Assembly: GCA_964586595.1 (NCBI GenBank)
Contig: CAZPHB010000016.1
Coordinates: forward strand, 39-64,038
Direction of reading: 5' to 3'
Length of the DNA: 64,000 nucleotides
Origin: an uncultured Flavobacteriaceae bacterium
Lineage (GTDB): Bacteria > Bacteroidota > Bacteroidia > NS11-12g > UBA955
Shown here: positions 52,914 through 64,000 of the stretch, piece after piece
How positions within the stretch are numbered: position 1 is the first letter of the stretch
Layout of the letters: each line of letters begins with the position of its first letter
Made by a program: the position numbers and the translations under genes
The notes under the pieces: model-generated
What the model saw: only the letters and a program-made list of their open reading frames with translations
Databases searched by the model: none
What the model was told of the DNA's origin: nothing

Positions 52914-54302
52914 TTAATCGCAGCCTCCGGTTGGGTTTAAGGGGAAGATGCTGGTTTGGTCGGAAATTGGGAATTGAAGGATGAAGCCCTTGCAATCCCA
53001 GGCGTGCCCACGCACGATGATGTTCTGTTTCTCTACGGCTGCCAAACGTTTCAAATCGTGGATGCGGTCGCCTTCAAACATCAGTTCCATGCGGCGCTGG
53101 TAGCGGGCTGCTTCGATGATTTGGGTAGCGGTGGAGCCGGCAGCAAGGATGCGGTTGTTGTTTTTGTAGGCGCGTCCGATGATGGCGTTCATGTCGGCGA
53201 TGGCGGTGCTCAGGTCTGTTCCGGTTTGGGCCAGGGCTTCAGCCCTGATCAGGTGGAGGCGCGTGAGGTGCAGCACGGGCACATCAAACAAGGGAGCGTT
53301 GTACAAATTGGTTTTAACCAATTCGTTCGCCTGACCCTTGTTCAGGGTTTCATAGTACGCCAAACGTTTATCGGCAGTATCGGTGTTTACGGTACTGAAA
53401 AACTGCCTGGATACCTGACACAGCGGCAATCCGGGTGAGTAGTTGTCGCGGAAGCCGCCGCCCCGGTTGTCGTTAATCCCTGTGCTCACTACCGAGAAGA
53501 TGGCCTCGGTAGCGCCTTTCGGAGTGAAGCGGTTCAGGGTATCAGAGAAGGTGTAACGTGCGCTGTTGATGACTGCAGAAGCCTGCGCAGCGGCATCGCC
53601 GTATTCACCCTGCTGGAAATACACTTCTGCCAACAAGGCCTGCGCCGCATATTTCGTCGCATAGTTTCCATTGCTTTCCGGAAGCAGGGTCGCAGCGTCC
53701 TTCAGGTCGCTGATGATCGACGCATAAGCCGCAGCCACGCTGCTGCGCGCCAAAGGTGTGCGGTCTGCCTTCAAAGCCAACCCGATGCCCGGATGGCTGT
53801 TGTCCGCCGAATAGCCCCAGGGATGCGCAAACAAACGCACCGCCGTGAAATGACACATCGCGCGGATGAATTTGGCTTCGCCTTCCATCCGGTTGCGGTC
53901 TGCTTCATTCAAATCAGCCGCCAGCGGAAAGCGCTCCATCACGAAGTTGGCGCGGAAAATGGCGCGGTACAGATTGCCATACAGCGATCCAATGGTGGTA
54001 TTGAAGAACAGGGTATTGTGGTTGAATACCTCGCGGTAGTCGTTGTTGTTCGGCAGGCTCAGGTTGTCGGCCATAAATTCCGAAATCACCTGCGCAAAAC
54101 CGCCGTAGGTATTGGCCACTTCATTGTAGCTGCCATTGAGCAGTTTCTGAAGGTCAGCACTGGTCTTTACGGCATCTTCCACCAAGAGTTCATTCTCCGG
54201 ACGGGTATCAATCATCTTATCGCAGCCGGCTGCAAAAACGCCCAGTGCAAATACAGCCAGAGCGGCGGTGAGGGTGCGGTTCTTGAAAATCGTGTAGTTC
54301 AT
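52914..54302 (-). CDS. susD: RagB/SusD family nutrient-uptake outer membrane lipoprotein
   Basis: Lipobox 'FAAGC'; TPR-like SusD fold; paired with the upstream SusC. Confidence 0.85.
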   Translation of the reverse strand: MNYTIFKNRTLTAALAVFALGVFAAGCDKMIDTRPENELLVEDAVKTSADLQKLLNGSYNEVANTYGGFAQVISEFMADNLSLPNNNDYREVFNHNTLFFNTTIGSLYGNLYRAIFRANFVMERFPLAADLNEADRNRMEGEAKFIRAMCHFTAVRLFAHPWGYSADNSHPGIGLALKADRTPLARSSVAAAYASIISDLKDAATLLPESNGNYATKYAAQALLAEVYFQQGEYGDAAAQASAVINSARYTFSDTLNRFTPKGATEAIFSVVSTGINDNRGGGFRDNYSPGLPLCQVSRQFFSTVNTDTADKRLAYYETLNKGQANELVKTNLYNAPLFDVPVLHLTRLHLIRAEALAQTGTDLSTAIADMNAIIGRAYKNNNRILAAGSTATQIIEAARYQRRMELMFEGDRIHDLKRLAAVEKQNIIVRGHAWDCKGFILQFPISDQTSIFPLNPTGGCD

Positions 54303-54313
54303 CGTTCGCTGCT

Positions 54314-57300
54314 TTAGAAGTTTACAGATAATGAGATGCTGTAGGATTTCTCCTGTGGCGCGGTGAGGTAGGTAATGCTGCCGCTCATGTTTCGGTCTGT
54401 GGGACTTTCAAAATCGCGGGCAATTTCAGGATCCAGGCCGGTATAATTGGTCCAGGTGAGCAGGTTTGTGGCAATGAAGGCAATGCGTGCCCCATCGAGG
54501 TTGTATTTCTTCGCTACGGAAGAAGGAAGCCTGTAGCCCACAGACAAGGAGCGCAAACGTACATAAGAACCGTCTTCCAGCCACTGCGTGGTATTGATCC
54601 AGGGCGTGGTGGAACCATAAGTGAAGGTGTTCAGGGTGCGGCGTGGATACCTCGCATCATCACCGGGCTTCTGCCAACGGTCGAATACGCGGGGATCGCT
54701 GTTCCAGTCGGTTTGCACACCCAACTGACGCTTGGCAGAAGATTCGTAGATGTCGCCGCCAATGCTGTAGTAAATATTCGCGGTCAGATCCCAGTTCTTA
54801 TAGCTGAAGCTGTTGTTCAATGAACCTATGGCTTCGGGAAGTACATCGCCCACAGGAACGCGGTTGGCCGGATCCCAACTCTTGGTTTCCTTGCCTTCTT
54901 TGTCCAGATATACCGGAAGTCCGGTGGCTTGATCAATATGGGAGAAGCGGACCAGGAAGTTCGTTCCCACGGGATAGCCAACCACCACACGCGTGTCGTT
55001 GGTTCCGCCGGAAACCGCATCTTCGCTGTACACGCCGATGCTGGTGATCTCGTTGTAGTTGCGGGCAATGTTGAAATCGGTGTTCCACTGGAAATTCTTC
55101 CGTTGGATGTTCTTGCTTTTCAGTACAAACTCCACGCCCCTGTTGATGATGCCGCCCACGTTGTCGTACATGCTGTAAAAGCCGGTGGTGCGGGGCACGG
55201 TAACATCCAGGATGACGTCTTTCGTGGCTTTGTCGTAATAAGTCAGTTCGAAGCTGATGCGGTTCTTGAACAAACTGCCTTCCAGCGTCGCATCGAAGTT
55301 GCGGGTGCTTTCCCAGCGCAGGTTCTGGTTCTCCAGACGCGCGGGTGCCAGCATCGGCTGACCATTGTACTGCGGCAGGTTGCCGGATGGGGTGATGGTT
55401 CCCCAACGGGCATAGTTGTCGAAGGAAGCATTGCCGGATTTTCCGATGCCTACCTTCACCTTCAGGAAGCTGATCCAGTCGTGGCGCTTGATGAATTCCT
55501 CATCGCTCAGGATATAACCCACCGCAGCGGCGGGGAAGAATCCGTAGCGGTTGTTGCGTCCGAAGCGGGAAGACCCGTCCACGCGCCCTGTTAATTGCAC
55601 GTTGAACTTGTTCTTGAACTTGTAGTTCGCCCTTCCGAAGTAACTCAAAAAGGCCCACTCGTAAGGCGTTCTGCCGAAGGCGCGCAAAGCGGTATCAGGA
55701 ATCGCTACCTTGTCTGTAGGACCGGTGGCATCCAGGTTTTCTACCGATTTGCTGGTGGTACGGGATTGCTGGTATTCATGACCAAGCATCACATTCACAC
55801 CGTGATCGGGTGTAATCTTCTTGTTCCAGTTGGCCGTGAGGTAATAGTTCATGTTGGAGGTCCAGATGGGGAACCACTTGGCTACGCCATTCTGCACATA
55901 ATTGGGACTGTAATAGCGAATGAGCTCCTGGGGTTCGTACAGAAATTCGCCGTAATCCATATAGTCATAGCTGGCGCTGCCGTTCAGGGTGATGTCGTCA
56001 GTCACCTCATAATTCAGGTTCAGGTTGTTGATGCTGCGCATTTCAATGCTGCGCCAGTCTTTCAGGTCGCGGATGGTACCAAGTCCAACCGGCGTTCTGT
56101 AGCCAATGCCATTGCTGTTCAGCAATGGTTCTTCGGGGAAGATGGGCAGCATGGTGCTCATAGCAGAACCCAGACCACCGGCCCAGGCCGCGTCCACCCT
56201 GCGGTTGATGCCTCGGCTCAGCGAATTGCTCAGGCTGATGTTCAGGCCTTTCAGCGGTTTGTAATCGGTATTCACCCTGCCGCTGAGGCGCTGATAATTG
56301 TTGCCGGCAAGGAATGATTCGTTATTGTCATAAGTAACAATGCTCTTCATGCCGAACCATTTATTGGTGTAACCGGCGGTGATGTTGTAGTTCTGTTTGT
56401 ATCCGGTCTGAATCACATCATCCACCCAGTTGGTATTGTATTTCTGGGCTTCCTGCCAGGTCATGTTCACGTTGATGAGCCCCAGATCCGGCGTTCCGGT
56501 GCGGCCATCGTTTTCCCAGGCTTCCTGGTACATCTGGAGAAATTCAGGACCATTCAGCATGCGAGGGGTTTTCGTTGGCTGGGAAATGCCGAATCGGGTC
56601 GAAACATCGAACTTCAAACCCTTCTTGCGGGCGCGCTTGGTGGTAATCAGGATTACCCCATTGGCGCCGCGTGAGCCGTAAATACTGGTGGCGGCGGCAT
56701 CCTTCAGAATTTCCACCGATTCAATATCATCGGGGTTGATGGTAGCCAGTGGGTTGTTGTTGAAGCCGGAGCCGAAGTTGCTGCCGTTGGAACGGTTCAG
56801 GAAATAATCCTGCGACACCGGAATTCCGTCAATCACGTACAAGGGGTCACCGGCGGCTGAAATGGACGCCACCCCGCGTATGCGGATCAGCGAAGCCGAA
56901 CCGGCCATACCGCTTCCCACCACTACCTGCACGCCGGGCGCCTTGCCTTGCAGGGCCGCCTCAAAACTGGGCGCCGGAATTTCAGCAATTTCCTTACCTG
57001 AAACCCGGGCAATCGAACCGGTAAGATCTCGTCGGTTCTGACGGCCATAGCCAATGATGACAATGGGATCTGCGCCTACGGATTTGGCAACGAGTTGCTT
57101 ATCCAGCACAAGGCTCTGCCCATCGCTCAGGTTGATGATTTCTTCGGAAGCTTCCAGTTGTTCGGAAGAAAAAACCACGGTATAAGTTCCTGCGGCAAGA
57201 CCCTGAATCAGGTAAGTACCGCTTTCGTTGGTCGCCGCCGACTTGTTCGCACCTTTCAGGCGCACAGTAACACCTGACAGGGCTTCACCTTTGTCGCCGG

Positions 57301-57406
57301 TCACTTTACCTGCCAGCGACGCCGTCTGAGCCCACAGATTGGCACCTCCAAAGAATAGCAGCAATCCGGGCAGCAAGCCTTGCAATCGTATCGTTCGAAG
57401 CATCAT
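54314..57406 (-). CDS. susC: SusC/RagA family TonB-linked outer membrane protein
   Basis: 1030 aa; carboxypeptidase-regulatory-like N-domain; TonB-box plug; C-terminal beta-barrel ending in F. Confidence 0.9.
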   Translation of the reverse strand: MMLRTIRLQGLLPGLLLFFGGANLWAQTASLAGKVTGDKGEALSGVTVRLKGANKSAATNESGTYLIQGLAAGTYTVVFSSEQLEASEEIINLSDGQSLVLDKQLVAKSVGADPIVIIGYGRQNRRDLTGSIARVSGKEIAEIPAPSFEAALQGKAPGVQVVVGSGMAGSASLIRIRGVASISAAGDPLYVIDGIPVSQDYFLNRSNGSNFGSGFNNNPLATINPDDIESVEILKDAAATSIYGSRGANGVILITTKRARKKGLKFDVSTRFGISQPTKTPRMLNGPEFLQMYQEAWENDGRTGTPDLGLINVNMTWQEAQKYNTNWVDDVIQTGYKQNYNITAGYTNKWFGMKSIVTYDNNESFLAGNNYQRLSGRVNTDYKPLKGLNISLSNSLSRGINRRVDAAWAGGLGSAMSTMLPIFPEEPLLNSNGIGYRTPVGLGTIRDLKDWRSIEMRSINNLNLNYEVTDDITLNGSASYDYMDYGEFLYEPQELIRYYSPNYVQNGVAKWFPIWTSNMNYYLTANWNKKITPDHGVNVMLGHEYQQSRTTSKSVENLDATGPTDKVAIPDTALRAFGRTPYEWAFLSYFGRANYKFKNKFNVQLTGRVDGSSRFGRNNRYGFFPAAAVGYILSDEEFIKRHDWISFLKVKVGIGKSGNASFDNYARWGTITPSGNLPQYNGQPMLAPARLENQNLRWESTRNFDATLEGSLFKNRISFELTYYDKATKDVILDVTVPRTTGFYSMYDNVGGIINRGVEFVLKSKNIQRKNFQWNTDFNIARNYNEITSIGVYSEDAVSGGTNDTRVVVGYPVGTNFLVRFSHIDQATGLPVYLDKEGKETKSWDPANRVPVGDVLPEAIGSLNNSFSYKNWDLTANIYYSIGGDIYESSAKRQLGVQTDWNSDPRVFDRWQKPGDDARYPRRTLNTFTYGSTTPWINTTQWLEDGSYVRLRSLSVGYRLPSSVAKKYNLDGARIAFIATNLLTWTNYTGLDPEIARDFESPTDRNMSGSITYLTAPQEKSYSISLSVNF

Positions 57407-57585
57407 TTCTTTCGATTAAGGCCGTAAAAATAGTAAAAAATCAAATAAGTGTCTATTTAACACTAAGTATTGATGAATTTGCCTGAGAAACCGTAAATCA
57501 TCAGCTTAAATACCTTGACAAATCAGGCTCCCCGCATCTGTTGCTATCATCCTGAACCACAAAGAATACAAACGATGTTCGCGCT

Positions 57586-59778
57586 TTATAGCAAATGAAA
57601 CACCCCTTTGAACAGGTCGGTGATGCTGCACACGCTCTTCCCGCGGATCACATAGATGTACACGCCTTTGGGCGCAGGACGGCCTTGATACGTGCCATCC
57701 CAGAATGTTTTCTTATCGGTAGTGGAAAACACCATTTCGCCCCAGCGGTTGTAGATCTCGCAGCGGTAGGATTCCAGTTCCTCCAAACCCGTAATCTGAA
57801 AGGTTTCATTCAGCGCATCTCCGTTGGGACTGAACGCATTCGGAATCAGCAGCGTATAACCCGGTATTTCCTCGCGCACCCGAAACTGCCAGGTGCTGTC
57901 GTAACATCTGTTTTTCAAGTTTACCCAGTAGTTACCGGGCGTATCCACCTCCAGTATGCGGCCGCGGGCGCCTGTGCTCCACAAAACCTGAGTGGCCGGC
58001 GGTGGATTTACCGTGATAAATGTGCTGTTGCGGTTCTTGCAGATCACATACATCTCGTCCACCGGGCGCTGCGGCTCCGGAAGGTAATTCACTGTAAATG
58101 TATCCTCCCACACTTTGCAGGCAAATACCAGTTGGCGGCGGTATATGCCCGACGCTTTCACCTCAAGACTGTCGCCGCTGCCCAGCAGGCGGCCATCGCG
58201 ATACCAGTTGGAGCGCAACTGCCCGTAGAAAGCATTGCCGCCAACCACATACCTTGCACCCGTGCACAACAGTGTATCCGGCAGCCGTGCAGGCGTTTGT
58301 ATGGCCACCGCACGGAAGGATGCAGTGGAACTGTCTAGCAGATTGCAGCTCCAGCGGTAGTAAACCGTGGTCTTGTAGGTACCTGTATCAATTGGTGTGA
58401 ACTGCAGCGAATCGCCGGCGGTTTCATACAACACCCGGCCATCCGGACCGGTAATCTTGCAGCGCAGGCGGATGAAATCCCGGTAATAATCCGCTTTTAT
58501 TAAATGCGCAATACCCACACAGGCCGTTTTGCCCTGCAACACCCGAACCCCGGGGTTGTAGTAGGCGCCGAAAGGGATGTAGTATTGATGAGTAAAATAT
58601 GGGTTGTAAGCATCAAATGAATCTATGGGGAAACCATTATAAGCACTTTGATCAATACTATCCCAGGGAATATAAAACGATTCAGGTTCATAACCGCAGG
58701 CCAATCCTTCCCGATCCGGGTAGGGAATGATGTCCGGATATTTCCTGGTGGTGATGCCCACTAACAATTGACCGGTGGGTAGTAAGTGAATGAAGGGGCT
58801 ACCGACCGAACCTTTTTGATACCCTCTGATGGCGATGGTTTGTGCCTTGATGCTGTCTTTATGCAACACCGTAATATCGGCCTGGTACAGCGTATCCCGA
58901 TGTATGTAATACAACTTCCGTCCATTCAGCGAATAACTCAGCGTGCCACTGATCGGACTGGGAAGCAGCATCAGGGACTCCGGGTCAATCCGCATTTTCT
59001 CCCGATCAAAGCGATGCACGCCAAAACCACGAACATCTCCGCTTAGTATGCAATGACTTAAATCAGGCGAAAACGCGTAGATCTTTGCACGACCGGGTGT
59101 AGTAGGTGAACCTTTCAAAGACTGCATCACCCGCCGTACACATTTGCCATTCACAACCTCTGCCATCTCCGTAAAGTAAACCTCAGGAAATCCGGCTCTT
59201 TTATTCGAGCCGCCGCCATATAGAAATATCTTTGAACAATCAGGAGTGTATATAACATTATCTACATAATTGAATAAGTTATAATTATAAAACAGCATAG
59301 TGGTATCATAAAATCGGGAAGAATCATCATTGAAATTCATCAGATAAGGAAAAGAATAGGGGTATTTTTTTGTATAATATAAATTATCATAATAACGCAA
59401 AATACTTGAACGATGATAATCGGGCATCTGCAGCATGAAAGTGTACCACAAATTACATTTTTCATAATTGGGGAAGGCGCTGTCGGCCTGCAGGTAGCGG
59501 TTTACGATGCGTTCCCCGCATTGTTTGCCGTTCAGTTTTACCCCCAGATAAAAATCACCCGCAGAGTCGGTTAAATAAGACATGCATTGGTTAAACGATG
59601 TATTAAATTGGGTAGGCTTGTAAAATCTTGGCGGATACTGTTTAAAATCCATGACATACCCGCGATCGCCAATGGACCAGATATTGTGGTTCCTGAGCTG
59701 CGCCTGCAAAATATCCGGACTCATGGCCCCCAGCAGGGCCATGAGTCCGAATAACATGCGTTTCAATGGGGGAATCAT
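57586..59778 (-). CDS. secreted protein with T9SS type-B (gliding-motility-associated) C-terminal domain, paralog copy 1
   Basis: Start chosen at M11 (ATG 59776-59778; signal peptide MIPPLKRMLFGLMALLGAMSPDILQAQ) overlapping the upstream stop as TAATG; C-terminus 'LLIPNAFSPNGDALNETFQITG...YRCEIYNRWGEMVF...KGVYIYVIRG'. Confidence 0.7.
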   Translation of the reverse strand: MIPPLKRMLFGLMALLGAMSPDILQAQLRNHNIWSIGDRGYVMDFKQYPPRFYKPTQFNTSFNQCMSYLTDSAGDFYLGVKLNGKQCGERIVNRYLQADSAFPNYEKCNLWYTFMLQMPDYHRSSILRYYDNLYYTKKYPYSFPYLMNFNDDSSRFYDTTMLFYNYNLFNYVDNVIYTPDCSKIFLYGGGSNKRAGFPEVYFTEMAEVVNGKCVRRVMQSLKGSPTTPGRAKIYAFSPDLSHCILSGDVRGFGVHRFDREKMRIDPESLMLLPSPISGTLSYSLNGRKLYYIHRDTLYQADITVLHKDSIKAQTIAIRGYQKGSVGSPFIHLLPTGQLLVGITTRKYPDIIPYPDREGLACGYEPESFYIPWDSIDQSAYNGFPIDSFDAYNPYFTHQYYIPFGAYYNPGVRVLQGKTACVGIAHLIKADYYRDFIRLRCKITGPDGRVLYETAGDSLQFTPIDTGTYKTTVYYRWSCNLLDSSTASFRAVAIQTPARLPDTLLCTGARYVVGGNAFYGQLRSNWYRDGRLLGSGDSLEVKASGIYRRQLVFACKVWEDTFTVNYLPEPQRPVDEMYVICKNRNSTFITVNPPPATQVLWSTGARGRILEVDTPGNYWVNLKNRCYDSTWQFRVREEIPGYTLLIPNAFSPNGDALNETFQITGLEELESYRCEIYNRWGEMVFSTTDKKTFWDGTYQGRPAPKGVYIYVIRGKSVCSITDLFKGVFHLL

Positions 59779-61361
59779 TATTGCAACATGAGGCGGTTTA
59801 CATACCATGTATGGCCGGAGTTCACTTTCACCATATAAGAGCCCGCAGGAAGGCCGGGCAGGCTTATTTCACTGCCGGAAACCAGCTTTGGGTTTTCCAT
59901 CACCAAACGTCCGTTGAGGTCATAAACCAACAGCCTGCCGGTTTCGCCGGGCGACCAGCTCAGTTGGACCTTGCCCGAAGCCGGGTTGGGCGTGATGTGC
60001 AGTCGGCCCATAGGGTTTATTTCCCGTTTTTCTGCTGTTAGCGGGGCGGGTCCGGCAGGGTATTCATCGCAGTCTGAACTGCTGATGTTCCGGAAGCGTG
60101 CTGCGCTGATGGTGATGGTTTTGTAAGTGCTCCAGCCGCAGATATTACGCGTGCGCACCTTCACCGTAACGTCGCTGTTGGGATTCAATGCCCATGCCGA
60201 ACCAAAATCGCAAAAATCCGTGCCGATGGTCTGACCACTCAGGGTATAAGTACCGCTGCCATTGTCAAAACTCCATTCCCATTCCTCTATCGTTGGGTCG
60301 TCGTTCGTGGTCCAGAACAACACATTCCGACGGCAAACACAGAGATCACCCAACTCACCATCCCAGCTAATTTGAGGCATGTCCGGAACGCCCGCCGGAA
60401 TTTTAATGCGGTGCATCAGGATTTGTTCTCCGCAAGGAGAGGATGCTTTCAGGTCGATGTCCACAAAACCGAAATTCCCAGCATTAGCTGCCACGGTAAA
60501 AGTATAACAACGACCATTCTCAATTGCATTAGTAACAGTAGGAAGAGAAACGCTATCAGTACTACCCACCTGATAATCCCATTGATAATTGGTACAAGGC
60601 AGCGAATCTACGCACAGGGTAACCGTACCCGTGGAGCAGATTACATTCGGCCAAACGCCCGTTTTGGTGAGTTGCGGCATGCGGGTAATGGTCACCGAAC
60701 CGGTGTTTCCCGCAAGGGTTTTGTCGCAGCCTTTAGGCCATACGGTGACCTGTACCTTTGCCCCATTTTGACCATTGGCCGGCGTTACGAGCACAGAAGG
60801 ACTTCCCTGTCCTGAATTCAGTGTCCAGCCACCGGGTAGAGTCCATTCGTAGTTATAGTCACCACCACCACTTCCGGCTGAAAAAAAGTATGAGTTGTTA
60901 TCGCAACAGGGAATGTAATCTGGGCCTACAATGTTTACCACTTCCGGAGGACATTTGGGTGTTACCCAAATGGTTTTTGTGGCAAGGAATGTTTTTGAAG
61001 ACACACAAATCCGAGAAATTACATTTCCGGCAGTATCCGTGGTTTCTACCAACTGATACGTCACACAATAGGCATCGCAACGAAGGAAATTCCCACCTGC
61101 CGGACAATCCCATTTAACCACAGCACCTGTTGCACTTTGTGATTGAATCAAACCTCCTCCGCAAGACCATTCATATTGCGTTTCCGGGTTGTAGGTGACG
61201 CCGTTGGCTGTGCACGATTGCCCGGAACAATTGGCGCCAGTTAAACTCATGGTGTAGGAATAATTTACACCTTTACATGGATTAGTCTCGCCGCTCAGCG
61301 ACAGGGTTTGAGCCGATAGCCCCCCCCCGCAAGAACCAGACCAAGAATGCAGCCTTTCCAA
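59778..61361 (-). CDS. Cys/Trp-rich secreted protein with T9SS type-A (Por) C-terminal sorting domain; start ambiguous around a poly-G tract (may extend to ATG ~61403)
   Basis: C-terminus 'LHITPNPASGKVQLSW...LLVYDLNGRLVMEN...LPAGSYMVKVN'; the ORF track starts at TTG 61361 with no signal peptide, but an ATG ~40 nt upstream encodes MNIKFNFSLLRPSFWKGCILGLVLAGG in the adjacent frame. Confidence 0.7.
   Translation of the reverse strand: MERLHSWSGSCGGGLSAQTLSLSGETNPCKGVNYSYTMSLTGANCSGQSCTANGVTYNPETQYEWSCGGGLIQSQSATGAVVKWDCPAGGNFLRCDAYCVTYQLVETTDTAGNVISRICVSSKTFLATKTIWVTPKCPPEVVNIVGPDYIPCCDNNSYFFSAGSGGGDYNYEWTLPGGWTLNSGQGSPSVLVTPANGQNGAKVQVTVWPKGCDKTLAGNTGSVTITRMPQLTKTGVWPNVICSTGTVTLCVDSLPCTNYQWDYQVGSTDSVSLPTVTNAIENGRCYTFTVAANAGNFGFVDIDLKASSPCGEQILMHRIKIPAGVPDMPQISWDGELGDLCVCRRNVLFWTTNDDPTIEEWEWSFDNGSGTYTLSGQTIGTDFCDFGSAWALNPNSDVTVKVRTRNICGWSTYKTITISAARFRNISSSDCDEYPAGPAPLTAEKREINPMGRLHITPNPASGKVQLSWSPGETGRLLVYDLNGRLVMENPKLVSGSEISLPGLPAGSYMVKVNSGHTWYVNRLMLQ
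61320..61329 (-). repeat. homopolymeric poly-G (coding strand) / poly-C (+ strand) tract of 9-10 nt at the signal-peptide/body junction
   Basis: Read directly: 'gatagc' then 'ccccccccc' then 'gcaag'; exact length uncertain by +/-1 against the ORF-track frame. Confidence 0.8.
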
Positions 61362-61757
61362 AATGATGGCCGCAATAACGAAAAATTAAATTTTATGTTC
61401 ATGATATGTATATATTAGCATTGGCAAGATATTTTTTTTAATTCATAATTCCAAATGTAAGCACCTTTAGAAATCAAGGCCGTAATTATTTTTCCAGGCG
61501 CATTTTGCTGATTCAGATGGCCTTCGATCGGTTATGTTATTGATTTTCAATTAGTTAAATTCTTTTTGAAGCATTTCAGCAATAACCCGCTTCATGAGTT
61601 AGGTCAAAGATTCTTCCAGCAAAACAATCCTCAGCCCGGCACTTCCGTGCTGCCGTCGGCGTGTTTGGCGAAGCGGATTCGCAAAACCTACGATGACCAT
61701 GAAACAGCTAATACTCTGTTTTTGGCTGTGTAAAAGCGCTGAATACTTATGTCTTGC
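61362..61757. promoter_or_regulatory. AT-rich 396-bp intergenic region between cassette units (terminator of unit 2 / promoter and leader of the type-A-CTD gene)
   Basis: Markedly AT-rich compared with the flanks; the only sizeable noncoding gap in the tandem array. Confidence 0.5.
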
Positions 61758-63950
61758 TTATAGCAGGTGAAACACCCCCTTGAACAGTTTCACCTGCGTG
61801 CAGATGCTTTTGCCCCTTATCAGGTATATGTACACGCCTTTCGGTGCGGGTTTACCATTGATGGTGCCATCCCAGAATGTTTTCTTATCGGTAGTGGAAA
61901 ACACCATTTCGCCCCAGCGGTTGTAGATCTCGCAGCGGTAGGATTCCAGTTCCTCCAAACCCGTAATCTGAAAGGTTTCATTCAGCGCATCTCCGTTGGG
62001 ACTGAACGCATTCGGAATCAGCAGCGTATAACCCGGTATTTCCTCGCGCACCCGAAACTGCCAGGTGCTGTCGTAACATCTGTTTTTCAAGTTTACCCAG
62101 TAGTTACCGGGCGTATCCACCTCCAGTATGCGGCCACGTGCGCCGGTATTCCATGACACCGCAGTGGCCGGCGGTGGATTTACCGTGATAAATGTGCTGT
62201 TGCGGTCTTTGCAGATGACATACATCTCATCCACCGGCCGGGCAGGTTCCGGAATCACCTTCACCTCAAAAGTGTCTTCCATGGCCGTACAGCCAAAGTC
62301 TAAGCGACGGCGATACATACCCGCCTCACCAACCCTCAGGGTATCGCCCTGCTGCACATAGCGGTTGTTGTGGTACCAAGAGGTACTGCGTTGACCATAG
62401 CTACTGTCGCTGCGCAACAGGAATTGCTGGCCGTAACACAACACCGTATCCGGCAGCGGCGGCGGTGTGCGTATGGCTTGCACCCGGAAGTTGCTGTGCG
62501 CGCTGTCCAGCAGGTTGCAGCTCCAGCGGTAATAAAGTGTGGTGCGGTAGGTGCCGGTATCGGCAGGTGTAAAGCGGAAGGAATCCGCGTAGGACACATA
62601 TACCACTTTACCCGAAGGGTCACTCACCTTCCATTCCATACGAATAAAATCGCGGTAGTAATCGGCCTTCACCGCGTGCGGTACCCCGGCACAGGCCGTG
62701 CGCCCTTGAACCACCTGAACACCAGGGTTGTAGTAGGCGCCGAAAGGGATGTAGTCCTCATCAGGGAAATATGGGTCGTAAATATCAAATGAATCTATGG
62801 GGAAACCATTGTAAGCACTTTGATCAATACTATCCCAGGGAATGTAAAACGATTCAGGTTCATAACCGCAGGCCGCTCCTTCCCGATCCGGGTAGGGAAT
62901 AATGTCCGGATATTTCCTGGTAGTGATGCCCACCAACAATTGACCGGTGGGCAGTAAATGGATGAAGGGGCTGCCGACCGAACCTTTTTGATACCCTCTG
63001 ATGGCGATGGTTCTGGCCTTGATGCTGTCTTTATGTAGCACCGTAACATCGGCCTGGTACAGCGTATCCCGATGTATGTAATACAACTTCCGTCCATTCA
63101 GCGAATAACTCAGCGTGCCACTGATCGGACTGGGAAGCAGCATCAGGGACTCCGGGTCAATCAGCATTTTCTCCCGATCAAAGCGATGTATGCCAAAACC
63201 ACGCGCATCTCCGCCTAATATGCAATGACTTAAATCTGGAGAAAATGCGTAGATCTTTGCACGACCGGGTGTAGAAGGTGAACCTTTTAAAGACTGTATC
63301 ACCCGCCGTACACATTTGCCATTCACAACCTCTGCCATCTCCGTAAAATAAACCTCAGGAAATCCGGCTTTTTTATTGGAGCCGCCGCCATATAGAAATA
63401 CCCTTGAACAATCAGGGGTGTATATCACATTTCTAACAATATTACTAAAATTATAATTTGAAAAAATTATGGAAGTATCGGTGAAACGGGAAGTATCCGC
63501 AGACAAATTTAGAAGATAATGAAATCCATCAGGATAACGTTTGGTATAATAATAATGGCTGTAATAGCGCAATATACTTGAACGATGATGATCTGGCATC
63601 TGTAGCATGAAGGTGGACCACCAACCGCAATCTTCATATTTGGGGAAGGCGCTGTCGGCCTGCAGGTAGCGGTTTACGATGCGTTCCCCGCATTGTCTGC
63701 CGTTCAGTTTTACACCCAGATAAAAATCACCCGCAGAGTCGGTTAAATAAGACATGTATCGGCTAAAAGAGGAATTATATTCGGTAGGCTTGTAAAACGT
63801 TGGCGGATACTGTTTGAAATCCACAACATACCCGCGATTGCCAATGGACCAGATATTGTGGTTCCTGAGCTGCGCCTGCAAAATATCCGGACCCATGGCC
63901 CCCAAGAGGGCCATGAGTCCGAATACTATGCGTTTCAAGGGGTGAGCCAT
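61758..63950 (-). CDS. secreted protein with T9SS type-B C-terminal domain, paralog copy 2
   Basis: Start at M11 (ATG 63948-63950, signal peptide MAHPLKRIVFGLMALLGAMGPDILQAQ), again a TAATG overlap with the upstream gene; C-terminus identical in type to copy 1. Confidence 0.7.
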   Translation of the reverse strand: MAHPLKRIVFGLMALLGAMGPDILQAQLRNHNIWSIGNRGYVVDFKQYPPTFYKPTEYNSSFSRYMSYLTDSAGDFYLGVKLNGRQCGERIVNRYLQADSAFPKYEDCGWWSTFMLQMPDHHRSSILRYYSHYYYTKRYPDGFHYLLNLSADTSRFTDTSIIFSNYNFSNIVRNVIYTPDCSRVFLYGGGSNKKAGFPEVYFTEMAEVVNGKCVRRVIQSLKGSPSTPGRAKIYAFSPDLSHCILGGDARGFGIHRFDREKMLIDPESLMLLPSPISGTLSYSLNGRKLYYIHRDTLYQADVTVLHKDSIKARTIAIRGYQKGSVGSPFIHLLPTGQLLVGITTRKYPDIIPYPDREGAACGYEPESFYIPWDSIDQSAYNGFPIDSFDIYDPYFPDEDYIPFGAYYNPGVQVVQGRTACAGVPHAVKADYYRDFIRMEWKVSDPSGKVVYVSYADSFRFTPADTGTYRTTLYYRWSCNLLDSAHSNFRVQAIRTPPPLPDTVLCYGQQFLLRSDSSYGQRSTSWYHNNRYVQQGDTLRVGEAGMYRRRLDFGCTAMEDTFEVKVIPEPARPVDEMYVICKDRNSTFITVNPPPATAVSWNTGARGRILEVDTPGNYWVNLKNRCYDSTWQFRVREEIPGYTLLIPNAFSPNGDALNETFQITGLEELESYRCEIYNRWGEMVFSTTDKKTFWDGTINGKPAPKGVYIYLIRGKSICTQVKLFKGVFHLL

Positions 63951-64000
63951 TACTGTAACATGAGGCGGTTTACATACCATGTATGGCCGGAGTTCACTTT
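63950..64000 (-). CDS. 3' end (last ~16 codons) of a third gene, homologous to the type-A-CTD gene at 59778..61361, truncated by the window edge
   Basis: The reverse complement of 63950-64000 encodes ...KVNSGHTWYVNRLMLQ*, identical to the C-terminus of the 59778..61361 product. Confidence 0.5.
   Translation of the reverse strand, partial: KVNSGHTWYVNRLMLQ

What the first reader, a model, noticed from the sequence alone, without database searches (positions are those of the whole stretch)
61318..61403. Poly-G tract placed between a signal-peptide start and the type-A-CTD gene body: candidate phase-variation switch
Just 5' of the ORF-track start (TTG at 61361, no signal peptide), an ATG at ~61401-61403 encodes a textbook signal peptide MNIKFNFSLLRPSFWKGCILGLVLAGG. 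It runs straight into a 9-10 nt G homopolymer (C-run on the + strand at 61320-61329), and the body follows (...LSAQTLSLSGETNPCKG...). By my reading of the printed sequence the tract is 10 nt, which puts the ATG and signal peptide in frame with the body. The ORF track's frame (MERLHSWSGSCGGG...) corresponds to a 9-nt tract with the signal peptide out of frame. I cannot count the run reliably. Either way, a +/-1 slip in this tract toggles between a secretable full-length protein and a signal-less or truncated product. This is the classic slipped-strand mispairing ON/OFF mechanism, here on a T9SS surface cargo that heads a two-gene operon, so the switch would control the downstream type-B gene too.
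Basis: partly seen in the sequence, partly recalled or inferred. Interest (0 to 1): 0.8.

Follow-up and report, generated by a model that had tools for sequence, protein, structure and literature searches.

The report
Frame-shifting poly-G tract in secretion-cargo gene
A run of nine G's inside the signal-peptide codons of a Bacteroidota surface-protein gene puts the gene out of frame here, and the run changes length between close relatives, so it is most likely an ordinary slipped-strand ON/OFF switch caught in the OFF state, though no ON copy was found anywhere.

Summary
The tract is real, but it is 9 nt long (C9 on the + strand, 61320-61328), not 10. In this sequence the ATG at 61402-61400 and its signal peptide are therefore out of frame with the gene body, and that frame stops at the TGA at 61297-61295. 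One extra G, or two fewer, gives a complete 541- or 540-aa protein with a PKD-like domain and a T9SS type-A sorting domain. Its stop overlaps (TAATG) the start of a type-B cargo gene.

Nine related DNA alleles from other metagenomes and MAGs carry the tract at the same place with different lengths or interruptions: G9, G8, AG7, G6TG, G7TG and G6. One relative is identical to the window over 600 nt of flank and differs only inside the tract. A 41%-identical homolog has a separate G11 tract earlier in its signal peptide, and that one is in frame. A paralogous cassette without the tract is always intact. GGG is the rarest Gly codon here, and the gene body is under purifying selection (dN/dS 0.13-0.34).

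This fits a slipped-strand contingency locus. Against it, none of about 24 relatives is in the ON frame, and some carry second lesions or large deletions. Read-level heterogeneity could not be checked. This is a textbook mechanism in a new host and cargo class.

The parts
61320..61328 (-). Poly-G tract of 9 nt (C9 on the + strand). In the ON reading it would encode the Gly run of the signal-peptide c-region (A-G-G-G-L-S-A|Q).
   Evidence: A homologous tract of different length sits at the same place in L001, L002, L003, L004, L006, L011, L012, L013, L015 and L016.
61329..61402 (-). ATG (61402-61400) and leader encoding MNIKFNFSLLRPSFWKGCILGLVLA. This is the signal-peptide n- and h-regions, out of frame with the body at 9 G.
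   Evidence: The hydrophobic core GCILGLVLA scores KD 2.62. The leader is homologous to the in-frame signal peptide of the tract-less paralog P0002 (FIGIFISGAGLSAQ).
61295..61297 (-). TGA that ends the ATG-initiated frame after 35 codons when the tract is 9 G.
59778..61319 (-). Body of the A gene (513 codons plus stop), containing a PKD_6 domain and a T9SS type-A C-terminal sorting domain. The first canonical start in this frame is the TTG at 61361, which gives no signal peptide.
   Evidence: Pfam PF19408 and PF18962; TIGR04183; dN/dS 0.13-0.34 against homologs.
59776..59780 (-). TAATG, where the A stop codon overlaps the B start codon by one base (translational coupling signature).
   Evidence: The same 1-nt overlap appears in the gene calls of L001, L004 (both cassettes), L006, L012 and L013 and at the upstream cassette (63948-63952).
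57586..59778 (-). B gene: a 730-aa T9SS type-B (CHU_C / TIGR04131) cargo with its own signal peptide MIPPLKRMLFGLMALLGAMSPDILQA|Q.
61758..63950 (-). B gene of the upstream paralogous cassette (80% identical to the downstream B). Its A gene ends at 63950-63952 and lies beyond the window.

Best explanation
The tract is a hypermutable homopolymer (a contingency locus) in the signal-peptide codons of a T9SS type-A cargo gene. Slipped-strand mispairing during replication changes its length.

At 10 G (or 7 G) the ATG at 61402 reads through a Sec signal peptide into the 541-aa cargo, with a predicted cleavage at LSA|Q. The cargo can then be exported, recognised by the T9SS through its C-terminal domain, and displayed on the cell surface.

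At 9 G (this window) or 8 G, ribosomes stop after 35-39 codons. No secretable protein is made.

The stop of A overlaps the ATG of the type-B cargo gene (TAATG). OFF states should therefore also lower B expression, through loss of translational coupling and possibly through polarity.

Shown:
- tract length and frame;
- restoration of the full ORF by one length change;
- length polymorphism among relatives;
- purifying selection on the body;
- the A/B overlap.

Inferred:
- the slippage mechanism and its reversibility;
- the predominance of OFF cells in nature;
- the effect on B;
- the selective agent (phage, grazers or surface attachment).
For: 1. The frame logic was verified by translation. At 9 G the gene is OFF, and at 10 G it gives a 541-aa protein aligning end to end with the intact paralog P0002.

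2. The same site varies in length among relatives.
- Window: GC+G9.
- L001: GCA+G7.
- L012: GC+G6TG.
- L003 and L011: GC+G6TG.
- L006: GC+G7TG.
- L013: G8.
- L002: G8.
- L004 second cassette: G9.
- L015 and L016: G6.

3. L012 and the window are identical over 300 nt upstream and 300 nt downstream. They differ only inside the tract.

4. Within one 90%-identity protein cluster, both 8-G (530-aa) and 9-G (538/527-aa) N-termini occur.

5. The tract persists in lineages whose synonymous sites are saturated (dS about 1.8). GGG is the rarest Gly codon here (11.9%), and none of 9 other Gly-Gly-Gly tripeptides in the window's long ORFs is encoded by nine G's.

6. A 41%-identical homolog (L007-L010) has a separate G11 tract in the n-region of its signal peptide, and it is in frame.

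7. The tract-less paralog (SGAG encoded as tccggcgctgga) starts with the full signal peptide in every cluster member whose N-terminus is present.

8. Body dN/dS is 0.13-0.34. A single tract change restores 540-544-aa ORFs in six loci.

9. T9SS type-A and type-B sorting domains are confirmed, as is the TAATG overlap.

10. The rest of the window consists of long uninterrupted ORFs, so the assembly is not riddled with indel errors.
Against: - No ON allele of this tract was seen. All 9 DNA alleles and about 24 informative N-termini in the clusters are out of frame with the ATG. None of 10 conceptual ON proteins exists among 15 billion sequences.
- Several relatives show decay. The tract is interrupted by G-to-T in L003, L006, L011 and L012. 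L003, L006 and L011 also carry a second 1-nt deletion that tract changes cannot rescue.
- The A gene is largely deleted in L014, L015 and L016.
- No read-level data were available, so heterogeneity within a population and reversibility are untested.
- The leader shows no codon-level purifying selection in the ATG frame: 10 nonsynonymous and 0 synonymous differences between the window and L013. Signal peptides do tolerate this.
- A 9-G run is not by itself beyond chance.
Confidence: 0.55

Rival explanations
1. This is non-adaptive gene loss. The poly-G run is simply a mutational hot spot at which a dispensable cargo gene has been knocked out, and the A gene is on its way to becoming a pseudogene in this and related lineages. 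No reversible regulation is involved.
For: - No relative is in frame at the tract.
- Second lesions occur in L003, L006 and L011: a 1-nt deletion that creates stops in every rescue frame.
- The tract is interrupted by G-to-T in four loci.
- L014 has lost almost the whole A gene, and L015 and L016 have lost most of it, while B stays intact.
Against: - Body dN/dS is 0.13-0.34, including between pairs that are both OFF, at dS 0.13-0.23 for the cluster-1 pairs.
- ORFs of 490-516 codons remain open in every locus read. One tract change restores the full ORF in six loci.
- The OFF state is shared by lineages with saturated synonymous divergence. If it were ancient, the body would be littered with stops.
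- The run is kept despite GGG being the rarest Gly codon.
- An independent in-frame G11 tract exists in a distant homolog.
Confidence: 0.2
2. This is an assembly or sequencing miscount. The organism truly has 10 G and an in-frame gene, and the 9 G is a homopolymer error in the source assembly.
For: - Homopolymers of 9-10 nt are error-prone on several platforms.
- The source appears to be a 64,925-bp NCBI contig. Its sequencing technology is unknown, and it could not be retrieved.
Against: - Independent assemblies all give out-of-frame lengths at this site. They come from JGI, ENA (a contig named k141_..., coverage about 20x), NCBI MAGs and Logan.
- Those lengths fall in two different wrong frames.
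- The rest of the window has long intact ORFs with no sign of indel noise.
Confidence: 0.1
3. Expression occurs despite the DNA frame. RNA polymerase slippage or ribosomal frameshifting on the G run yields a fraction of in-frame product from any tract length. The gene would then be constitutively expressed at a low level, and the DNA never needs to be in frame.
For: - It would explain why all alleles are out of frame while the body stays under purifying selection.
- G GGG GGG formally fits an X XXY YYZ slippery heptamer (read directly from the sequence).
Against: - There is no stimulatory RNA structure downstream of the tract (z = -0.17).
- Alleles of 10 and 11 nt between the flanks need shifts in opposite directions, which no fixed programmed signal would serve.
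- From general knowledge, not tested here: known productive transcriptional slippage in bacteria mostly uses A/T runs.
Confidence: 0.08

Closest known systems
Poly-G/C homopolymer phase variation of surface and receptor genes in Neisseria, Campylobacter and Helicobacter. Examples: meningococcal hmbR/hpuAB (PMC3786947), gonococcal lgt and pgtA (PMC2192423, PMC2193922), and the Campylobacter phasome (PMC6321876, PMC8355987).
   Same: - A G/C run of 8-11 nt sits inside the 5' part of an ORF for a surface-exposed product.
- Changes of +1 or -1 shift the frame.
- Tract length differs among close relatives.
- Interrupted tracts in some relatives are read here as locked OFF, an interpretation not tested.
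   Different: - The host is an uncultured freshwater Bacteroidota rather than a host-adapted pathogen.
- The cargo is exported by the type IX secretion system.
- No ON allele and no within-population heterogeneity have been shown here.
- My literature searches found no paper linking T9SS cargo or Flavobacteria-type organisms to homopolymer switching.
Neisseria opa genes, which have CTCTT pentamer repeats in the signal-peptide-coding region (from general knowledge, not checked here).
   Same: - The repeat lies within the signal-peptide codons. In-frame length changes therefore only lengthen the leader, and out-of-frame changes abolish the exported protein.
- Most copies are OFF at any one time.
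   Different: - The repeat here is a homopolymer rather than a pentamer.
- There is one tract-bearing cassette plus one tract-less paralog, rather than a family of about 11 switching copies.
Listeria monocytogenes inlA 5' poly(A) tract, and the general 5' enrichment of homopolymers in prokaryotic genes (Orsi et al. 2010, PMC2831843).
   Same: A homopolymer at the 5' end of a surface-protein gene is regularly found frameshifted in natural strains, giving a very short product. It is proposed there as reversible inactivation.
   Different: That case is poly(A) rather than poly(G), in a Gram-positive host, and its switching frequency was measured experimentally. That paper found 5' enrichment for A/T tracts.
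Invertible-promoter and shufflon-type phase variation, described for Bacteroides (from general knowledge; see also PMC9881135 on programmed inversions).
   Same: Stochastic ON/OFF control of surface structures in the same phylum.
   Different: The mechanism is entirely different. I saw no invertase or inverted repeats in what I read of this locus, but I did not search for them.

Membership tests
Simple-sequence-repeat (homopolymer) phase-variable / contingency locus | Homopolymer of about 7 nt or more inside the 5' coding region or promoter | tested here: met
   G9 at 61320-61328, 72 nt after the ATG.
Simple-sequence-repeat (homopolymer) phase-variable / contingency locus | A +1 or -1 change of tract length switches between a full-length and a truncated product | tested here: met
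   9 G gives a 35-aa peptide, 8 G gives a 39-aa peptide, and 10 G or 7 G gives 541 or 540 aa.
Simple-sequence-repeat (homopolymer) phase-variable / contingency locus | Tract length polymorphism among closely related genomes, with conserved flanks | tested here: met
   Alleles G9, AG7, G6TG, G7TG, G8 and G6. L012 differs from the window only inside the tract over 600 nt.
Simple-sequence-repeat (homopolymer) phase-variable / contingency locus | Both ON and OFF alleles occur in natural populations | tested here: not met
   None of 9 DNA alleles or about 24 N-termini is ON, and none of 10 conceptual ON proteins is in the collection. Only the differently placed G11 tract of L007-L010 is ON.
Simple-sequence-repeat (homopolymer) phase-variable / contingency locus | High-frequency, reversible length change within a clonal population | not testable with these tools
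   This needs raw reads, amplicon sequencing or a reporter assay.
Simple-sequence-repeat (homopolymer) phase-variable / contingency locus | The tract is maintained against codon usage and drift | tested here: met
   GGG makes up 11.9% of Gly codons, and none of 9 other GGG tripeptides uses nine G's. The tract is retained across lineages with dS about 1.8.
T9SS type-A cargo protein | C-terminal type-A sorting domain (TIGR04183 / PF18962) | tested here: met
   TIGR04183 scores 41.8 bits (cut-off 23) at residues 470-540. PF18962 scores 36.8 bits.
T9SS type-A cargo protein | N-terminal Sec signal peptide in frame with the mature protein | tested here: not met
   It is present only in the conceptual 10-G or 7-G reading. 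As sequenced, it is out of frame. Signal-peptide quality was judged by charge, hydrophobicity and the LSA|Q site. SignalP was not available.
Programmed -1 ribosomal frameshift site | Slippery heptamer plus a downstream stimulatory structure, with the same shift conserved in homologs | tested here: not met
   The heptamer is formally present. The downstream fold is no better than shuffles (z = -0.17), and homologs need different shifts.
Pseudogene | Relaxed selection (dN/dS near 1) and multiple disabling lesions | tested here: not met
   The window has a single lesion, at the tract, and dN/dS is 0.13-0.34. The criterion is met in some relatives: L003, L006 and L011 (second frameshift) and L014, L015 and L016 (deletions).

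The most novel reading that the evidence does not exclude
The tract-bearing A-B cassette may be a bet-hedging module of free-living freshwater Bacteroidota. One poly-G tract in the signal peptide would gate two T9SS cargoes at once: type A directly, and type B through TAATG coupling. The complete absence of in-frame alleles in about 24 environmental assemblies, combined with clear purifying selection on the body, would then mean one of two things. Either ON cells are a persistently rare subpopulation held down by phage or grazer pressure, or the protein is made from out-of-frame DNA by polymerase or ribosome slippage on the G run.
Probability: 0.2. Interest if true: 0.6.

Novelty: new member of a known kind. 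Interest (0 to 1): 0.4.

Why it matters
Homopolymer phase variation is well established in host-adapted pathogens. My literature searches found no report of it for type IX secretion cargo, or for Flavobacteria-type organisms. Phase variation in Bacteroides is generally described as working through DNA inversions (my own knowledge).

If this site really switches, it would show that uncultured lake bacteria diversify their T9SS-displayed surface by slipped-strand mutation. It would also give a simple marker, the tract length, that could be followed in existing long metagenomic time series.

For annotation, it explains why gene callers give this family truncated, signal-less N-termini (starts at MSLTGAN..., LRPF... 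or a TTG).

Tried and rejected
1. Scans of genome contigs and metagenome contigs with the family alignment gave one useful locus (L003) and one irrelevant locus (L005). A second word-indexed search with the alignment returned the same six clusters.

2. The look-up of the window's own 490-aa product (P0017), intended to recover the source contig and the 5' end of the upstream cassette, was not on record. The P0004 contig had no retrievable DNA.

3. dN/dS of the 24-codon leader in all three frames was uninformative and did not favour the ATG frame.

4. The idea that alternative frames supply their own signal peptides was mostly rejected.
- The window's TTG frame has no hydrophobic core (0.54).
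- The ATG2 frame of L004-A2 is poor (1.13).
- The 8-G TTG frame of L002 (MRPFALLAQILRGGLSAQ, 1.91) is borderline and cannot be excluded for that lineage.

5. A frameshift-stimulating RNA structure downstream of the tract was not supported.

6. The sigma-70 promoter and terminator scan gave fewer hits than shuffles. It does not cover promoter types other than sigma-70, and by my own knowledge Bacteroidota promoters differ from that consensus.

7. A PDB sequence search of the A body gave only weak matches (best 5jvk_A, E = 0.003, over residues 436-504) and no functional lead.

8. Exact look-up of 10 conceptual ON proteins found none.

9. The all-against-all representative search showed that full-length relatives are few: P0006, P0054, P0177, P0197 and the 240-aa P0168. 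P0054, P0168, P0177 and P0197 have ordinary leaders without Gly runs. All other hits are PKD-like repeat giants.
Full report
**1. What is in the sequence**

On the minus strand, an ATG at 61402-61400 opens a frame that encodes MNIKFNFSLLRPSFWKGCILGLVLAGG. This frame runs into a G homopolymer at 61328-61320.
- The run is 9 nt, not 10. It is the only G/C run of 8 nt or more in the 64-kb window.
- With 9 G, the ATG frame continues as ...GGGYRLKPCR and stops at the TGA at 61297-61295.
- The long ORF (59778-61361) is in another frame. Its first canonical start is a TTG, and the resulting N-terminus (MERLHSWSGSCGGG...) has no hydrophobic core.
- Adding one G gives a 541-aa ORF, and removing two gives a 540-aa ORF. 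In that reading the leader ends ...LVLAGGGLSA|Q.
As sequenced, the gene is in an OFF configuration.
- A 9-G run alone is not statistically remarkable. Dinucleotide shuffles give a mean of 0.69 per window, and 37 of 100 shuffles contain at least one.

**2. What the genes are**

- The conceptual 541-aa protein has a PKD-like domain (PF19408). It also has a T9SS type-A sorting domain (PF18962; TIGR04183 at 41.8 bits against a cut-off of 23).
- Its TAA overlaps the ATG of the next gene (TAATG, 59780-59776).
- That next gene encodes a 730-aa protein with its own signal peptide and a type-B sorting domain (PF13585 / TIGR04131).
- A second B gene, 80% identical, lies upstream at 61758-63950. It is preceded by the 3' end of another A gene with the same TAATG junction, and the rest of that A gene lies beyond the window.
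- The locus is therefore two tandem A-B cassettes. The finding concerns the downstream one.

**3. Comparative evidence at the tract**

The family is small: six clusters at 90% identity and only a handful of full-length relatives at the 50% level.

I read the DNA of every retrievable relative. The sequence between the conserved flanks (...GGTTCTT / ...AAATTTT on one side, CTATC(G/A)GC on the other) is as follows.

| Locus | Sequence between flanks | Note |
|---|---|---|
| Window | GC+G9 | |
| L001 | GCA+G7 | 91% protein identity |
| L012 | GC+G6TG | |
| L003, L011 | GC+G6TG | also a 1-nt deletion 53 nt downstream; L003 is a Lake Mendota Bacteroidia MAG |
| L006 | GC+G7TG | same downstream deletion |
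| L013 | GC+G8 | |
| L002 | GC+G8 | 63% identity |
| L004, second cassette | GC+G9 | |
| L015, L016 | GC+G6 | |

- Every one of these is out of frame with the upstream ATG, and they fall in two different wrong frames.
- L012 and the window are identical over 300 nt on each side and differ only within the tract.
- Within one 90%-identity cluster, both 8-G (530-aa) and 9-G (538/527-aa) N-termini occur.
- In 129 kb of window plus loci, all G/C runs of 7 nt or more except one lie at this site.

**4. Evidence that the tract is kept rather than accidental**

- GGG is the rarest glycine codon in the window's long ORFs (11.9%). None of nine other Gly-Gly-Gly tripeptides is encoded by nine G's.
- Lineages that share the tract are saturated at synonymous sites (dS about 1.8), yet both retain an uninterrupted run.
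- The paralogous first cassette of L004 encodes the equivalent residues as tccggcgctgga (SGAG). Every member of its cluster whose N-terminus is present starts with the complete signal peptide MKIQYKNSS.NLLLRKFVFIGIFISGAGLSAQ. Its similarity to the ATG-frame leaders (for example ...VCFIGSNFAGG) identifies the ATG frame as the true ancestral frame.
- A 41%-identical homolog (L007-L010) has a separate G11 tract in the n-region of its signal peptide (SQGGGV), and it is in frame.
- More distant relatives have ordinary leaders.

**5. Is the gene alive?**

- dN/dS across the body is 0.13-0.34. This includes pairs that are both OFF (window against L001, L012 and L003, at dS about 0.22).
- In six loci, one tract-length change restores a 540-544-aa ORF.
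- The window is otherwise made of long intact ORFs, so pervasive indel error is unlikely.

**6. What does not fit a simple switch**

- No ON allele was found. About 24 informative N-termini in the clusters all begin at downstream or alternative starts (MSLTGAN..., VLSAQ..., LRPF..., MSVFK...).
- None of ten conceptual ON proteins is present among 15 billion sequences.
- At least five independent length changes can be inferred, and none landed in the ON frame.
- Some lineages show real decay. The tract is interrupted by G-to-T in four loci. L003, L006 and L011 carry a second frameshift that no tract change can rescue.
- In L014 (B gene 98% identical), the A gene is reduced by an in-frame deletion to a 40-codon ORF. 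That ORF still starts at the same ATG and still ends in TAATG.
- L015 and L016 keep only a 140-aa remnant of A.

**7. Interpretation**

The best-supported reading is a slipped-strand contingency locus currently OFF (confidence about 0.55).
- The tract sits in the c-region of the signal peptide, where in-frame changes of 3 nt would only add or remove a glycine.
- Out-of-frame lengths abolish export, and with it T9SS display.
- From general knowledge, Bacteroidota signal peptidase I substrates frequently have Gln at +1 (the 'Q-rule'). The LSA|Q site, and the ILQA|Q site of B, agree with this.
- Loss of translation through A should reduce B expression, through the TAATG coupling and possibly through polarity. 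This step is inferred.
- The in-frame mini-ORF of L014, which preserves both the ATG and the TAATG junction, is consistent with the coupling idea but could be coincidence.

The rivals, in order of confidence:
- Non-adaptive inactivation at a mutational hot spot, as part of ongoing loss of the A gene (0.2).
- A homopolymer miscount in the source assembly (0.1).
- Expression from out-of-frame DNA by transcriptional or ribosomal slippage (0.08). There is no downstream stimulatory structure (z = -0.17), and different alleles would need opposite shifts.

**8. Comparison with what is known**

- The mechanism is the classical one of poly-G/C tracts in Neisseria, Campylobacter and Helicobacter surface genes (PMC3786947, PMC2192423, PMC2193922, PMC6321876, PMC8355987).
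- It also matches 5' homopolymers generally (PMC2831843).
- Its position in the signal peptide recalls the Neisseria opa repeats (general knowledge).
- Searches combining T9SS, Bacteroidetes or Flavobacterium with phase variation, homopolymer or slipped-strand terms found no report of such a switch on T9SS cargo.
- I therefore rate it a new member of a known kind. It meets four of six defining features. The feature 'ON and OFF alleles both observed' was tested and not met, and 'reversible high-frequency switching' could not be tested.

**9. Verdict**

- Interest is moderate (0.4).
- The decisive test is read-level tract-length profiling in the source and related metagenomes, followed by a reporter assay.

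Noticed in passing
L014 1190-1312 (NCBI MAG GCA_039796915.1, contig JBDKIU010000030.1): In a relative whose B gene is 98% identical, the A gene is almost entirely removed by an in-frame deletion. The same ATG plus 14 leader codons is fused to the last 26 codons of A, giving a 40-codon ORF that still ends in the TAATG overlap with B. The context is DUF5777, mini-A, B, SusC, SusD, and the B-SusC-SusD part matches window 52914-59808.
   Followed up: partly
L015 2784-3344 and L016 (61% B homolog; GCA_964554395.1 and Logan SRR14454018): The A gene has a shortened G6 tract and a large internal deletion that leaves a 140-aa remnant carrying only the sorting domain. B is intact with the same 1-nt overlap.
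   Followed up: partly
window 61432-61439 (T8 on +, A8 on the gene strand): A second homopolymer lies about 30 nt upstream of the ATG, between a TTTG and a TAtcTTGc. These resemble the Bacteroidota -33 and -7 promoter elements (a resemblance from memory). The run is interrupted (ATAAAAAA) in L003 and L011. Its length could affect promoter spacing.
   Followed up: no
window 60440-60590 approx. (A protein residues ~275-320) against L001/P0001 and L004 first cassette/P0002: There is a hypervariable segment of the A protein. In this stretch P0001, the window's closest relative, matches the tract-less paralog P0002 rather than the window. This suggests mosaicism or gene conversion between the two cassettes.
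   Followed up: no
L002 698-800 and L004 10280-10380: In the 63%-identical lineage, all three frames upstream of the tract have a start codon and stay open up to the tract (ATG1; ATG2 17 nt later; a TTG). The 8-G TTG frame gives MRPFALLAQILRGGLSAQ, which is moderately hydrophobic. More than one tract length might therefore yield an exportable product in that lineage.
   Followed up: partly
window 52914-57406: A SusC-like TonB-dependent receptor (1030 aa) and a SusD-like gene (462 aa) lie immediately downstream of the B gene on the same strand. They are followed by a DUF4961 gene, so the cassette abuts a polysaccharide-utilisation-type locus.
   Followed up: no
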